Positions 5,895 to 64,000 of a stretch of DNA of 64,000 nucleotides are shown here, piece by piece; the stretch's first letter is position 1, and each line of letters starts with the position of its first letter. A program made the position numbers and the translations under genes. The DNA is from Eledone cirrhosa (lineage: Eukaryota), in contig OZ024747.1 in assembly GCA_964016885.1 (NCBI GenBank), forward strand, positions 15,376,001 to 15,440,000, read 5' to 3'. The notes under the pieces were generated by a model. That model worked only from the letters and a program-made list of their open reading frames with translations, was not told the origin of the DNA and made no database searches.

Positions 5895-6092
5895 TAGTGA
5901 CGAAATATAAGGCAATTGCATGAACTCATAATCCTTTATTTACTGCTATATATATTTAACAGTAAATAAAGGATTATGAGTTCATGCAATTGACTTATGT
6001 TTCGTCACTATTACAACTCCGGAACTTATATCTTCGTTGAGTGCTCCCTATCCGCATACTGAAGTATTGGATTTTACCAACACTTTCTTGCT
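5895..6092 (+). mobile_element. Foldback element in (TA)n with one-sided 3' extension
   Basis: Inverted arms 5895-5945 / 5960-6010, then extension containing ACTC...GAGTGCT; (TA)n on both sides. Confidence 0.75.
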
Positions 6093-6195
6093 TATATATA
6101 TATATATATATGATATTAATAAATGATATATATATATATGATATTAATATATGATATATATATATATGATATTAATATATGATATATATATATAT

Positions 6196-6608
6196 GATAT
6201 TAATAAATGGAAATTATATTTATAAAACCATATTTATTTCATTATACATATTTCAGGGATACCAAATTAAATCATGGTATGCCTTCATCAGACAAAATAC
6301 AATATATAACAGTTTTACATTATTTTTGGAAGCCATCTGGATGGCTTCCAAAAATAATGGTTGCATTTTAAAAGGGTACGCCAAAGCTTATTTGTAAAAC
6401 TGTTATATATTGTATTTTGTCTGATGAAGGCATACCATGATTTAATTTGGTATCCCTGAAATATGTATAATGAAATAAATATGGTTTTATAAATATAATT
6501 TCCATTTATTAATATCGTATATCTACTCCAAATATTTGTCGAGTGCTTTATATCAGTTATAAAAATATTTACTTGTTGTATCCCAACAATTTTAAATAGA
6601 ACTTTTGC
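6196..6608 (+). mobile_element. Hammerhead-bearing foldback element (Penelope-like pLTR pair) in (TA)n
   Basis: Arms 6196-6319 / 6393-6516 essentially perfect; inner hairpin 6318-6359; extension 6517-6608 with ACTC...GAGTGCT. Confidence 0.85.
6413..6478 (+). ncRNA. Hammerhead ribozyme-like motif (mirror copy on - strand at ~6234-6299)
   Basis: CTGATGA-AGGCATACCA-loop-TGGTATCCCT-GAAA; 9 of 10 bp in stem II. Confidence 0.75.
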
Positions 6609-9025
6609 ATATATATATATATATATATATATATATATATATATATATATATATATATATATATTATATATATATAATGTATATATATATATATATATAT
6701 ATATATATATATATATATATATATATATATATATATATATAATGTATATATATATATATATATATATATATATATATATAATGTATATATAATTCGTGGT
6801 ATTTAGACATTTAGATAGATGCGACTCTACGTTCTGGGTTCAACTTCCCTCAAGGTTAATTTTGCCTTCATCATTCTGGGGTTAATATATAAACTACTGA
6901 TAACTTACTGGTGTCGATTTAACCGAATTTCCCCTTCTCCACACTGACTTGTTTTCTTAAAATAGAAATCGTTGATGCGGTGGGGCGGGAGGCTTTGTTG
7001 GCTAATCCTGCCTGCTGGATATAACAACAAAAGCTTCCTCAATTCACAGTTTTAGGTGTTTTAAAAAGAGTGTTCCTGATTCACAATGCTGGAAAATAAA
7101 AATATAAATGCCAGGATTGCGAGGGATTCAATATTTTTTTTATTATAGACTTTTCTCAATCAAGATCGACCAAGGACGTATCAGGAACAGCTAGAACAAG
7201 AAGAACAAATAAAGTGTATTGTTGTTAAAGTCAAAATACTCACAAAGGTCTCTTCGCTTTGGTTCTATATCAGAAATGCTCCTCGTTTATTTGATGTAAG
7301 CGGAGGACAGTTGTCTTCATATCTTGTTTTACTATTGCAATAACATTATCCAAGAACGTGACAGCGATGTTAGTAAAATGTCTTTTATTATATTTTCTAT
7401 TTCCATTGAGTAAGTTCACCTAGAATGTTGATCTCCCATCATCCTATAGATAAATAATAACAAAACTTAAATCAAATAAATATATGGCGTAGACATCTGC
7501 ATGATACTTGTATCTAATGATTGCTGTTTTTATTAATGATGATTCTGAAGAGAAAACTAATGCTACTTCATATGAATCACTGATAGTGGTTCGCAGACTA
7601 TCCAGTGATGTCTTCTGCACGAATAATTTATGAATATGTGAAGGCTCACATTTAGAGCATAGCATCGAGAAGAAACATTCACTAGTATTCATGATTTATC
7701 CCTGTCAAGAAAAGCATGTGGTACTATTCTGAAATCCAAATTAATGAATAATGAATAGGGAAGCGAATCTAATATTTTAGTAATAACATTGACAACTCCC
7801 GTCTTATTTGATAATCTCAGCGACACAAACTTTTGACCAGTACTTATCTGATCATTGGGGCAAGAGCGTTAAATATATTTGAATGAAATTACATTGAAAG
7901 CGACGCCACTAAAACTTTGATTGGAAGACATCATTTGGTTAGTGGGACATTTAAGGGATCCAGTGACTTTGTAAAATATTTCAAGTACATTGCATTCTGT
8001 TCATAGTTATTCTCAACCAGGAATGACCTCGGGTTAAGTAACAACAGAAACAGCATGACTGACTCTAGATATTCTTCTTGAGTGAACATCGTTTAATATA
8101 TTGCACAACTCTATAGATAGTCATTCTTAAAAACACCATCGGTGCGCCATCCCAGGGTCACTGAATTGTTGTGGGTCTTATGACAAACCCCTTCTAATAT
8201 GTGACATAGCCATGTTTGATCAAATTCCAGCCTCTGTTGATCTGACTTTCTACTGAAATCAGCGGTCACTTATACATTTGTGGAAGTCATTTAGATCTCT
8301 TTGCTTTTGTTTCCATGTTGTTCTTAGATCTCTTCTATTGCTCACACCATTAATTCAATTAATCTGGACGTAAACATGTTCAAGGTTAAAAGCATTGTTG
8401 TGATTATTTATTGTATTAAACAGCTACTATAAGGATAAATTTAATAAAAAGCTTAATTCATTATATTTTTGCGACATACTGAAAGAAAATAAAACGCTAT
8501 TTATATAGGAGAAAACGTTAATGCTGAAGATTTAAAGCGTAATTAATAGCTACACACCTCGTTATTATAGCTATACTGGTGATGCAAATAACTAGATGAA
8601 ATCAATACTAACCTTTGACTGCTATTTAATCTCGAGTTCAGTATTAATATTGTTTAAAAAATATACAAATCGAAAGTCATATAATAAAATACCTATTTGC
8701 CTTTCTCCCAAGAACTTGCAATATAATTTGCCGATATAGTGAGAAGCTTTCATATTTCAAAACAAAATCAAATAAAAAATGATTAAAAAAAATATTTTTC
8801 AACATTTATTTTGAACGAAACAAAACATATATCATTTCTGAACGTACAAGTTGTCAATAGTGATGTATTAAATTTCAAATGTATGCTGTTTTTTTTATTT
8901 GCGTAAACTACGTTATCTATTATAAAAAAGTAGTTCGTAAATTCTATTAAAGATAGAGGCAAATAATTGAATATACGAGGATGCTATAGTCTGGGGAAAA
9001 TTAATGAATAATAATAATAACAATA

Positions 9026-9618
9026 TATATATACATGGATGCATATATATATATATATATATATATATATATATATATATATATATATATATATATATAT
9101 ATATATATATATATATATATATATATATATATATATGTATATATATATATATATATATATATATATATATATATATATATATATATATTTATATATATAT
9201 ATATGCATATATGTATATATATAGATATATATACATATATATATATATGTATATATATATGTATATATATATATATATATATACATATATATATGTAGGT
9301 ATGTATATATATATATATATATATATATACATATATATATGTATGTACGTATATATATATATATATATATATATATATATATATATATATATATGTATGC
9401 ATATATATATATATATATATACATAAATATATATGTATATATATATATATATATATATATATATATATATATATATATATATATATATATATATATATAT
9501 ATATATATATATATATATATATATATGTATGTATATATAGGTATGTATATATATATGTGTGTGTGTGTGTGTGTGTGTGTGTATATGTGTGTGTGCGTGT
9601 GTGTGTGTGTGTGTGTGT
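9026..9618. repeat. Long (TA)n/(TG)n microsatellite
   Basis: Directly visible; source of the YIYIYI ORFs. Confidence 0.98.
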
Positions 9619-61692: not shown

Positions 61693-62890
61693 GCCTCAAA
61701 ATTAGAGAGGTTGCCCAGTACTCGCGACGTTATTGTCTTGTGCTCTGGTGTAGGCTCCGTTATTCACCCCTTCATTTACATTTTCTTTAATATTGTAGCA
61801 TTGAAGGAATATATCTTTCATTGTATCATTCTTTGTAATGTTACCGAGGCGTTTGTAATGTTATTTATGTATATATTTAAAACATATTTGTTATTCTACT
61901 GTAAATTTATTTATATGTTCTGTTTATATTTTCATTCTCACTGTCCTCAAAAATCTATGAAACTACATACATGTTGCAACTCTCTCTATATATATATCAC
62001 ACATACACACATATACATATACATCTAAAGAGAGAAAGGGAGATGTAGAGAGAGAGAGAGAGAGCCAGATAGGTCGTTATACAGAGAGAGAGGTACAAGA
62101 TAATCAGATAGAAAGACAGAGAGAGAGAGAGAATGCCGACGAACGCTGGTTCACACACACGCAAACACATATATATATAAAGACAGAGAGAGAGAGGAGA
62201 GAGAGAGAGAGAGAGAGAGAGAGAGAGAGAGAGAGAGAGAGAGAGAGAGAGAGAGAGAGAGAGAGAGAGAGAGAGGGTATGAGTGAGAGAGAGAGAGGGA
62301 AAAGAGAGAGAGAGAGAGAGGGTATGAGCAAAAAGGGAGAGGGGTTGAGAAAGAAAGAAAGTTTATGCAAAGAATCGCCGCTTTCAACATTAACGGGATC
62401 TTCTTAAAATAATAAATTCAATCTGTTATCGCAGAATTACAGGAATACGATATTTTGGTTCTTGAAGACGTTCCCTGGCAATGAACGGAAAAATAGCGAG
62501 GATAATACGTCGTTATGTGGACCGGAAAGAACAATTTCATGCAAAGACAAGACCAAGTTTATGGTATAAATGGAGTTGTTAGACTAATATTCTATTTAAA
62601 ATAACCGAATGAATTCCAGCCCCGGAGTTTAAGAATGATGTAAATAAAATTGTAAACGAAAATGACAGAGGTTATTAAAATAGTTGTTTCTACTTTTGGC
62701 ACAAAGCCAGCAATTAACCAGTACATTACTGGTACTATATTTTATCGACCCCGTAAGGATGAAAGGCAAAGTTAAGCTCGACGGGATTTTAACTTTGCCT
62801 TAAAATAGTAAAACTAAATAGTGAAGATTTAGGGCAGTACATACGTATGCGCCGACGGACATACACATAGATATACATACGCACACACAA
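61075..62890. repeat. Local duplication of a pLTR-fragment/half-SINE chimera
   Basis: 61075-61410 matches 62518-62885; partial third copy 61480-61633. Confidence 0.85.
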
Positions 62891-62959
62891 ATACATACAC
62901 ACACACAAACAGACACACACATACATACACACACACACTCACACACACTCACACACACG

Positions 62960-63403
62960 TGTGTGTGTGTGTAAACATTATCCATTTCTACAGTATTTTC
63001 ACCAAACTTAAGACATAGGTTACTTATGTACTCCGGATGGTCATGGGCACTTTCATTTTTCCAGATATTGATTATAGGGCCGCCCAGCAGATAACCCCCT
63101 GTAACCACTTCCTTGGAGTCGACTGAAGCACTGCAGTGCAATGCAACAAAACGTCATAACCTCTGGTGTTCACAACCGATTTTCTCAAAACTTGACACAT
63201 GGGCTACATTTGTTCTACAGATGAATGTGAACTCTCAGAATTGGCACATATTGAGTAGGGGACTCCTGGGGGAAGGAACCTCCTTTTAGAAAAACCCGAG
63301 GATTTTTTAAAAGTATAGTTTTCGAAACAGCATTGAAGTATAGGCATTAATGGTATACATAACTGCTATTTAATACCCGAGCTAAGCCGGGTACCTCTGA
63401 TAG
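62960..63403 (+). mobile_element. Helitron-like 3' portion
   Basis: Hairpin ACCCGAGC-TAA-GCCGGGT followed 8 nt later by ATAG|T; 5' boundary uncertain. Confidence 0.55.
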
Positions 63404-64000
63404 TATATATATATAGTAATAATAATAAATGTGAAAACTAAAATCCAAAGAGGGCTCGATAAGGATAAATATATATGAAATATATAAGTACCCTAGAGCA
63501 AATATTTTATATATATATATAAAATGTTTGCTATATATATATATATATATATATATATAAATATATATATATATAGGAAAAGTGTGTGTATATATATATA
63601 TATATATATATAATCTGTTATTTTAATATATATATATATAAAATATTTCCTATATATATATATATATAGGAAAAGTATGTATATATATAACAATTATAAG
63701 AATATTTGTTTCGACACACTATTTCATATCAAAAACCTCGCAAAACTAATTCATCGCCGTTATATATATATATATATATAGGAAAAGAGTCAGAATCCCG
63801 ACGGCTGAGCTCCGGCCGTTTTGACTGCTAGATCCGAACATATATATATATATACATATATATATATATATATATATATATATGTATGTGTGTGTGTGTG
63901 TGTGTGTGTGTGTGTGTGTGTGTGTGTGTGTGTGTGTGTGCGTGCGTGCGTGTTTCAAATACTCTTTCATTGATTTTGAATTACAGTCTTGATTGTTGCT

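What the first reader, a model, noticed from the sequence alone, without database searches (positions are those of the whole stretch)
6016..63500. Covarying 3' RNA motif RCTC...GAGY(GCT) shared by unrelated families
Seen: the extensions open with the same motif, in foldbacks only 5-15 nt past the end of the inverted arm. ACTC..GAGTGCT occurs at 6016+, 6525+, 32557+, 35529+, 42985-, 49603- and 50225-. ACTC..GAGTACT occurs at 43738-. GCTC..GAGC occurs at 39274+, 63500- and 32864-. Single-mismatch versions occur at 50889+ and 43985-. The A-T versus G-C swap in the outer pair is compensatory, the enclosed segment varies from about 12 to 37 nt and is often itself a hairpin, and (TA)n usually follows 45-75 nt later. 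Inference: a conserved structured cis-element (RT recruitment, internal initiation signal or processing site) that marks where the short arm stops. I do not know a description of this motif.
Basis: partly seen in the sequence, partly recalled or inferred. Interest (0 to 1): 0.8.

Follow-up and report, generated by a model that had tools for sequence, protein, structure and literature searches.

The report
Twin hairpins set retrotransposon start sites
A small bulged RNA hairpin, present twice in the non-coding leader of Hydra-type Penelope-like retrotransposons from this genome and from other hosts, lies a few bases past each of the element's two insertion ends and likely tells the element's reverse transcriptase where to start copying, which would explain the lopsided inverted insertions these elements leave.

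Summary
The motif is real and bigger than reported. The foldbacks are Hydra-clade Penelope-like elements (not Neptune). The motif is a hairpin, RCUC-N…N'-U-n-GAGY(nCU), with a 2-nt bulge opened by U. Full-length copies carry it twice, between the hammerhead and the ATG. In eight families of this genome, 257 of 259 microsatellite-abutting 3' ends lie 2-15 nt 5' of copy 1 or copy 2, while the spacing varies 76-146 nt, so the known PLE 'tail' is the distance between the copies. 104 of 107 outward-facing arm pairs use site 1 on one side and site 2 on the other. The twin motif recurs in 26 of 43 Hydra leaders from metagenomes, with compensatory pairs; the inner pair switches at least four times on the protein tree. 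Best mechanism (inferred): the RT-endonuclease binds each hairpin and primes from both cut strands of (TA)n, once per site. The bulge resembles an arginine-sandwich site. A non-Hydra family lacks it. Two non-coding families keep both hairpins but use only site 2 and form no foldbacks. No Rfam match; not described in the papers I could search. Binding and priming are untested.

The parts
6016..6045 (+). Hairpin copy 1 (A-U outer, C-G inner, UU bulge) opening the tail of foldback 5897-6008
6525..6547 (+). Hairpin copy 1, family G, tail of foldback 6196-6516
6421..6461 (+). Hammerhead core (CUGAUGA ... GAAA) upstream of site 1, family G
   Evidence: pattern match only
32557..32584 (+). Hairpin copy 1, family B, tail of foldback 32222-32549; copy 2 and a Hydra ORF start follow in read-through copy L098
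32828..32864 (-). Hairpin copy 1, family D, in the short inverted arm that carries the tail; the long arm ends at site 1 (34842)
32967..33320 (+). 5'-truncated GIY-YIG endonuclease of Hydra family D
35529..35560 (+). Hairpin copy 1, family H (UA bulge)
39274..39321 (+). Hairpin copy 1, family C (G-C outer); copy 2 and ATG follow in L124, L126, L127, L128
42957..42985 (-). Hairpin copy 1, non-coding family A; no inverted arm
43712..43738 (-). Hairpin copy 1, family I, tail of foldback 43748-43862; copy 2 and a Hydra ORF follow in L066
43937..43985 (-). Hairpin copy 1, family C, one mismatch; 3' end of the copy whose endonuclease lies at 45269-45679
45269..45679 (-). Linker (CxCx5C) and GIY-YIG endonuclease of Hydra family C
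49573..49602 (-). Hairpin copy 1, family A, second unit of a direct tandem
50020..50116 (-). Hairpin copy 2, family A (U.U outer, long stem), 5 nt past the family's insertion end
50196..50225 (-). Hairpin copy 1, family A, read-through unit
50889..50916 (+). Hairpin copy 1, family B relative, one mismatch, tail of foldback 50619-50890
59992..60019 (-).
60389..60476 (-). Hairpin copy 2, family J (U.U outer, long stem)
63451..63499 (-). Hairpin copy 1, family C, short copy

Best explanation
Hydra-clade Penelope-like elements carry two copies of a bulged hairpin between their hammerhead and start codon, each a few bases 3' of one of the two insertion ends, and these hairpins likely bind the element's RT-endonuclease and set its two internal start sites. 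Shown: the twin motif, its covariation, its fixed place just 3' of site 1 and site 2, the TAT/ATA usually found at the junction, and the near-strict 1+2 pairing of the two outer ends of an inverted insertion. Inferred: (1) the protein, probably a dimer as predicted for the Poseidon element PAc, binds both hairpins on a sense transcript; (2) the endonuclease cuts both strands of (TA)n; (3) each 3' end pairs with the UAU/AUA 2-9 nt upstream of a hairpin and primes cDNA there, so the hairpin itself is not copied from its own site; (4) the two cDNAs are joined at their truncated inner ends, giving a foldback with the tail (site 1 to site 2, holding hairpin 1) on one arm only. More speculative: the bulged U forms a U.A-U triple and an arginine-sandwich pocket like HIV TAR, read by the invariant R-x-R of the N-terminal domain (R35/R37) or the tract before W[FY]NPP (R478/R480).
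For: 257 of 259 microsatellite-abutting ends in 8 families lie 2-15 nt 5' of a motif while motif spacing runs 76-146 nt. DNA contigs of public runs show loose (TA)n ends at the same two places and a depth step of about 1.0-1.3 million (tail) to 2.4-2.9 million (arm) in family C (the main run may be the assembly's own sample). In metagenome loci 14 of 23 non-contig-end copy ends lie 0-5 nt 5' of a motif. 104 of 107 outward pairs are 1+2, reference loci left out; independent use gives at most half. Site-1 arm longer in 8 pairs (one 9th call is junk) and site-2 arm longer in 3, so the tail arm is often the short one and cannot be a snap-back copy. Inner pair C-G 41, U-A 17, U-G 1 of 62 metagenome motifs; bulge U 61 of 62, second bulge base free; six changes on the protein tree, four forced by strong branches. 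Outer pair G-C 69, A-U 10, other 3 of 82. TAT/ATA at -9..-2 in 43 of 62 against 0.246 background; last three matched bases TAT/ATA in 179 of 225 ends. For PAc, RT starts internally at two sites that bound the tail, needs RNA to +172 when starts are at +111-118, extends both strands and is predicted to dimerise (PMC11167929). The predicted fold's N-terminal part aligns with telomerase RT (e.g. 7trd_A Z 14.8, rmsd 4.1, 358 aligned, model 4-475), while group II intron and retron RTs align only from about residue 150.
Against: Families A and J keep hairpin 1 but no copy ends there with a microsatellite (A: 28 site-2 ends, 0 site-1; J: 29 site-2, and 2 site-1 calls that are not followed by TA and look like internal breaks) and none of their loci shows an inverted arm pair, so a hairpin is not sufficient for a start site. 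The distance from last matched base to hairpin differs by family (2-9 nt mostly), looser than a rigid ruler. The strand test is weak: G.U 7 vs A.C 2 in inner stems, sense fold lower in 49 of 62. Folded in context, the hairpin appears in 5 of 8 sequences, not in two window tails, and family C pairs copy 1 with copy 2 instead; no z-score is significant. About 12 of the 107 pairs are under 40 nt and may be miscalled; 115 of 129 pairs could not be resolved for arm length. With another reference, 21 family-C ends mapped inside the AT-rich loop of hairpin 1, probably an artefact of that palindromic loop. PAc is a different clade, starts without homology to the target, and the stem-loop in its Fig. 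S1 text lacks this motif. One published copepod Hydra consensus has a C-G pair and G bulge at the proposed triple. No binding or priming data.
Confidence: 0.62

Rival explanations
1. One RT start only. The hairpins are RNA binding sites, but just one site primes; the other end is made later, by snap-back synthesis that stops at hairpin 1 or by endonuclease cutting next to it (the 'EN-mediated resolution' view of the tail).
For: Explains the 1+2 coupling with a single priming event and the many near-perfect palindromes. PMC8557442 ascribes the tail to EN-mediated resolution (passage); PMC11167929 cites that the D. virilis tail was needed for EN recognition. Families A and J use site 2 alone.
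Against: In 8 resolved insertions, the window's family D copy among them, the long arm ends at site 1 and the short arm carries the tail, which the long arm could not have templated. PAc starts RT at both tail boundaries in vitro.
Confidence: 0.17
2. The working strand is antisense and the hairpins are template-boundary elements, as in telomerase RNA: the RT stops 2-9 nt before them.
For: Ends lie just next to the hairpins; an antisense, self-priming template was proposed for PLEs (PMC3846280, passage); PLE and telomerase RT folds are close.
Against: Sense-strand wobble and energy lean the other way, weakly; the hammerhead is on the sense strand in 19 of 19 leaders; PAc uses a sense template; the TAT/ATA at the junction suits priming.
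Confidence: 0.08
3. The hairpins serve another job in the leader (translation control or start-codon selection, help for hammerhead folding, RNA stability), and ends fall beside them only because structure and nearby UA runs favour priming there.
For: Copy 2 lies 14-53 nt before the ATG in most leaders; the hammerhead is 41-66 nt before copy 1; hairpin 1 is kept without an end in families A and J.
Against: Non-coding families A and J keep both hairpins with no ORF or hammerhead core found; ends track both copies across spacings of 76-146 nt and ignore other UA runs; 1+2 coupling is unexplained.
Confidence: 0.1
4. The motif is itself a small self-cleaving or processing element.
For: Invariant unpaired U and trailing CU; PLE leaders do host ribozymes.
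Against: No Rfam family matches; too small for known ribozyme cores (own knowledge); a cut inside or before hairpin 1 would separate the two sites and break the 1+2 coupling.
Confidence: 0.03

Closest known systems
Hydra clade of Penelope-like elements (Craig et al. 2021, PMC8557442)
   Same: Single ORF of about 700-800 aa, RWR/RWK, DKT, CxCx5C linker, C-terminal GIY-YIG, hammerhead in the pLTR, (TA)n targets, tandem and inverted copies with a tail. Their consensus sequences Hydra-1_Ajap (both copies), Hydra-2_Ajap and the one listed before Hydra-1_Obim (3' end) contain the motif.
   Different: The sections and passages I read describe no conserved structure in the tail, give it as 30-40 bp (here 55-146 nt) and ascribe it to EN-mediated resolution.
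PAc, Poseidon element of Anolis (Frangieh et al. 2024, PMC11167929)
   Same: Internal RT starts at two sites that bound the tail; RNA 3' of the start is required; both strands cut and extended; predicted dimer.
   Different: Other clade; starts lie inside the ORF in an AC-rich stem-loop, without homology to the target; the binding motif was not defined; no twin bulged hairpin in the figure text I saw.
Arginine-sandwich motif of HIV TAR and 7SK SL1 (PMC6189040; PMC2699496)
   Same: A paired purine, then a bulge opened by U, then G-C and A-U pairs and a further G; HIV-2 TAR has a two-base bulge. Here: purine before the bulge in 59 of 62, U in 61 of 62, free second base.
   Different: The loop closes on the other side of the bulge; two copies; trailing nCU; no homology implied; triple and arginine binding untested.
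3' stem-loops recognised by LINE RTs (R2, L2, CR1) and L1 twin priming (own knowledge, not read here)
   Same: A small structured element recruits the RT near its start; twin priming gives inverted 5' parts.
   Different: In those elements the structure lies 5' of the start and is copied; here it lies 3' of an internal start, and the second primer uses a fixed, encoded site.
Telomerase RNA elements bound by TERT's RNA-binding domain (own knowledge; fold match)
   Same: Related RT fold, internal template, short primer-alignment stretch, structured RNA anchor beside the template.
   Different: No repeat addition; the anchor is 3' of the start and duplicated; no sequence likeness tested.

Membership tests
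Hydra-clade PLE | RWK motif in place of GxKF/Y, DKG modified to DKT | tested here: met
   RWR and DKT in families C, D, I; definition
Hydra-clade PLE | CxCX5C linker and C-terminal GIY-YIG without the CCHH motif | tested here: met
Hydra-clade PLE | Canonical hammerhead in the pLTR | tested here: inconclusive
   Core pattern in 19 of 19 metagenome leaders and in families C (one change), G, K; not matched in D, I, B, M, H, F by my pattern, some for lack of upstream sequence; Rfam gave no hit
Hydra-clade PLE | (TA)n target preference | tested here: met
Hydra-clade PLE | RT phylogeny places the element inside the clade | not tested
   Tree has no outgroup or published Hydra rows; 38-45% identity to the metagenome relatives and shared motifs with the published alignment seen by eye
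Neptune-clade PLE | CX2-5CxxC linker and CCHH motif, DKG | tested here: not met
Arginine-sandwich motif (TAR, 7SK) | Bulged pyrimidine after a Watson-Crick-paired base and before a G-C, A-U stem | tested here: met
   definition
Arginine-sandwich motif (TAR, 7SK) | Base triple formed and arginine intercalated | not testable with these tools
   Needs NMR, cryo-EM or binding of arginine mutants
Any Rfam 15 family | Covariance-model match over the motif | tested here: not met
   0 matches at E <= 0.5 in 12 metagenome loci; in the window the 150 rows shown of 213 were sub-threshold miRNA-type hits on repeats and palindromes, none over a motif

The most novel reading that the evidence does not exclude
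Hydra-clade Penelope-like elements encode a programmed twin-priming signal: two TAR-like arginine-sandwich hairpins hold the two subunits of a telomerase-like RT dimer on one RNA, each aligning a cut (TA)n end on a short UAU just upstream. This is the cis-code behind the PLE tail and inverted pLTR, and a portable 25-nt tag that sets an internal RT start anywhere in an RNA.
Probability: 0.3. Interest if true: 0.88.

Novelty: new variant of a known kind. Interest (0 to 1): 0.72.

Why it matters
How Penelope-like elements choose their internal start sites and why they leave inverted copies with a tail on one side are open questions; the one in vitro study located a needed region but no motif. A short, clade-wide, duplicated hairpin with known compensatory changes turns both questions into direct mutational tests. 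It gives a handle on RNA recognition by the closest relatives of telomerase RT, a sequence rule for annotating Hydra element ends, and possibly a movable start signal for RNA-templated insertion.

Tried and rejected
Coding explanation (GAG read as Glu): rejected, both copies lie before the ATG in families C, D, I, M and the metagenome leaders. Chance near microsatellites: rejected, 24 of 82 vs 45 of 6266. Symmetric foldbacks flagged: three of them (L335, L045, L132) resolve into neighbouring 1+2 insertions. Pair counts for motif-free families are unusable (two low-complexity references). 'Tail-only' inserts starting at site 1: no pile-up. MAFFT did not align the stems, so covariation was counted by fixed offsets in a script; R-scape was not available. 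Pfam: no family for two Hydra ORFs. Solved structures by sequence: nothing meaningful. No RNA holder listed. DNA search for the AC-rich tail family returned nothing; its link to a non-Hydra ORF comes from L036. Earlier-findings searches were blank. Literature searches that found no description of the motif; subscription papers and Repbase entries were not searchable, and the PAc GenBank supplement and figure images could not be read, so the region +118 to +172 of PAc was not compared in full. I did not determine the organism.
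Full report
Observation. The 13 sites carry the stated letters; 49603 and 63500 should read 49602 and 63499. In 300 shuffles that keep microsatellites in place, RCTC..GAGY.CT is expected 4.96 times and seen 15 times; with a TA run downstream, 0.39 and 10; without the trailing CT it is not enriched. 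Eight sites sit just past an inverted arm, two weakly, and three (42985, 49602, 50225) have no inverted partner. The window lies in a 3.0-Gb genome; I did not determine the organism.

What the elements are. Two endonuclease remnants in the window led to long copies. Their ORFs have RWR, DKT and a CxCx5C linker, which match the definition of the Hydra clade of Penelope-like elements (PMC8557442, section 11), not Neptune. 736 proteins matched at E <= 1e-20 among 8000 scored; those listed are mostly 39-44% identical. The AlphaFold model (mean pLDDT 79.8, pTM 0.57) is closest to telomerase RT by Foldseek. In the VIA alignment several telomerase chains span the model from residue 1-4, while group II intron and retron RTs start near 150; ranges give first and last residues only.

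The motif is a bulged hairpin and comes twice. In read-through copies the tail end is followed by a second copy and then, in coding families, the ATG: family D, C, B and A, I and J, and two more families outside the window. The form is RCUC, an inner pair, a variable loop, a two-base bulge, GAGY and usually nCU. Both copies are non-coding.

It is not chance. In 122 ten-kb stretches (110 taken at fixed positions, 12 beside the window), foldbacks were found without using the motif: 24 of 82 asymmetric ones have the strict motif 2-15 nt past the arm, against 45 of 6266 control points near microsatellites. They fall in 9 of 45 clusters; about ten more clusters show one-change variants by eye. Others have AC-rich tails without it; one of these, the family of the window's foldback 51139-51684, follows a non-Hydra PLE ORF in L036.

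It is clade-wide. 78 metagenome loci gave 65 ORF starts in 43 clusters: 26 with two motifs, 10 with one, 7 with none; I did not resolve these 17 one by one, several are cut short. A hammerhead core lies 41-66 nt before copy 1 in 19 of 19 leaders long enough to test; spacing is 55-83 nt. Published consensus sequences from a sea cucumber and a coral carry it; those named Hydra-1_Obim and Hydra-1_Crog carry variants. The 27 hits of two 7-mers that fell in the Naiad and Chlamys parts of that supplement showed no such terminal hairpin in the context displayed.

Covariation. With the 5' strand picked as the nearest RCTC, the inner pair is C-G 41, U-A 17, U-G 1, other 3 of 62; the first bulge base is U in 61, the second U 41, A 11, C 8, G 2. 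On a quick protein tree of 28 rows the inner pair of copy 1 changes six times, at least four on strong branches. Over 82 motifs (58 metagenome, 24 hand-picked from this genome; 3 of 85 dropped as a mis-pick, a duplicate and an over-long loop) the outer pair is G-C 69, A-U 10, A.C 2, U.C 1, mutual information 0.44 against a shuffle maximum of 0.085, and the inner pair 0.95 against 0.19. CUC/GAG invariance is built into the search; all A-U outer pairs in this set come from this one genome, and shuffles ignore relatedness.

Position relative to the ends. In eight families, 257 of 259 microsatellite-abutting ends lie 2-15 nt before copy 1 or 2 while spacing varies 76-146 nt (many loci came from tail-containing queries). 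Public DNA contigs show the same two ends in family C. In the metagenome loci 14 of 23 ends away from contig ends lie 0-5 nt before a motif; 3 of the other 9 are hammerhead-only matches between families. The junction usually carries TAT or ATA. Outward-facing pairs are 1+2 in 104 of 107 cases. Either arm can be the long one (8 and 3 resolved).

Against. Families A and J, non-coding tandem units of about 600 nt, keep both hairpins but end at site 2 only and show no foldbacks, even when fetched with arm-only queries. This ties foldbacks to two-site use but shows that a hairpin is not enough. Thermodynamic support is modest and the strand test weak. See the best explanation for further caveats.

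Mechanism. Shown steps are the anatomy and the statistics above. Inferred: protein bound at each hairpin, priming from both strands of cut (TA)n on the UAU just upstream, joining of the two cDNAs. This borrows from PAc (PMC11167929; I read the first two of four parts, which hold the main text, and three supplements that gave little text). The bulge fits the definition of an arginine sandwich (PMC6189040, passages; PMC2699496, passages); the likeness of the outer pairs to TAR is recalled, not read. R35, R37, R478 and R480 are 93-98% conserved in 121 aligned proteins and are candidate readers.

Novelty. Tail, internal starts and Hydra clade are known (PMC8557442: abstract, sections 11 and 12, passages, parts of the supplement; PMC3846280 and PMC4209133: passages). 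Six searches of open full text and two Rfam scans found no description of the hairpin, its duplication or the 1+2 rule. I rate it a new variant of RT-recognition element, interest 0.72.

Noticed in passing
window 49502-50327 (-), 42893-43080 (-); 59922-60545 (-): Families A and J are non-coding tandem units of about 580-620 nt with both Hydra hairpins, no hammerhead core found and no foldbacks; A has an internal (TA)n at which most copies begin. Probably non-autonomous Hydra derivatives.
   Followed up: partly
window 51079-51684: Near-perfect foldback (98.5%) with a hammerhead core on both arms and a 60-nt AC-rich tail without the motif; the same 3' region follows a non-Hydra PLE ORF (CxxxCxxC linker) in L036.
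   Followed up: partly
L147 7013-7372, L045 about 7008-7423, L160 7330-7602: Other short tandem-unit families with foldbacks and tails of a different kind, without the motif; no ORF seen.
   Followed up: no
window 1133-1340, 10481-10667, 14957-15195, 21307-21984, 29729-31851, 35258-35447, 36732-37137, 38376-38591, 61199-62794: About 20 copies of a roughly 190-nt dispersed repeat, some inserted inside PLE foldbacks; looks like a SINE.
   Followed up: no
window 47553-48368 (+): 271-aa frame resembling the RT C-terminal part of an RTE-type LINE (recognised by eye).
   Followed up: no
L033 2776-4725 (-), L031, L032: Family D has an Asn/His-rich insert between RT and endonuclease, a 1.5-kb 3' UTR, a 146-nt tail and an altered hammerhead core, yet is very abundant (search candidates in the tens of thousands, shared with related families).
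   Followed up: no
window 42683-42886 and 54293-54713: A further repeat family with a hammerhead core (42818+, 54410-), partly in direct tandem.
   Followed up: no
window 46765-47242: Degenerate 70-nt tandem array.
   Followed up: no
window 2210-2261 (+), 41081-41132 (+), 16860-16884 (-): Three further pattern matches; 2210 lies 84 nt before a TA run and may be an old copy, the other two are probably chance.
   Followed up: no
L124 4545-4690 (-): The 3' half GAGYRCU(C) is nearly palindromic, and copy 1's 5' strand can pair with copy 2's 3' strand in the predicted fold; an alternative, switch-like conformation is possible.
   Followed up: partly
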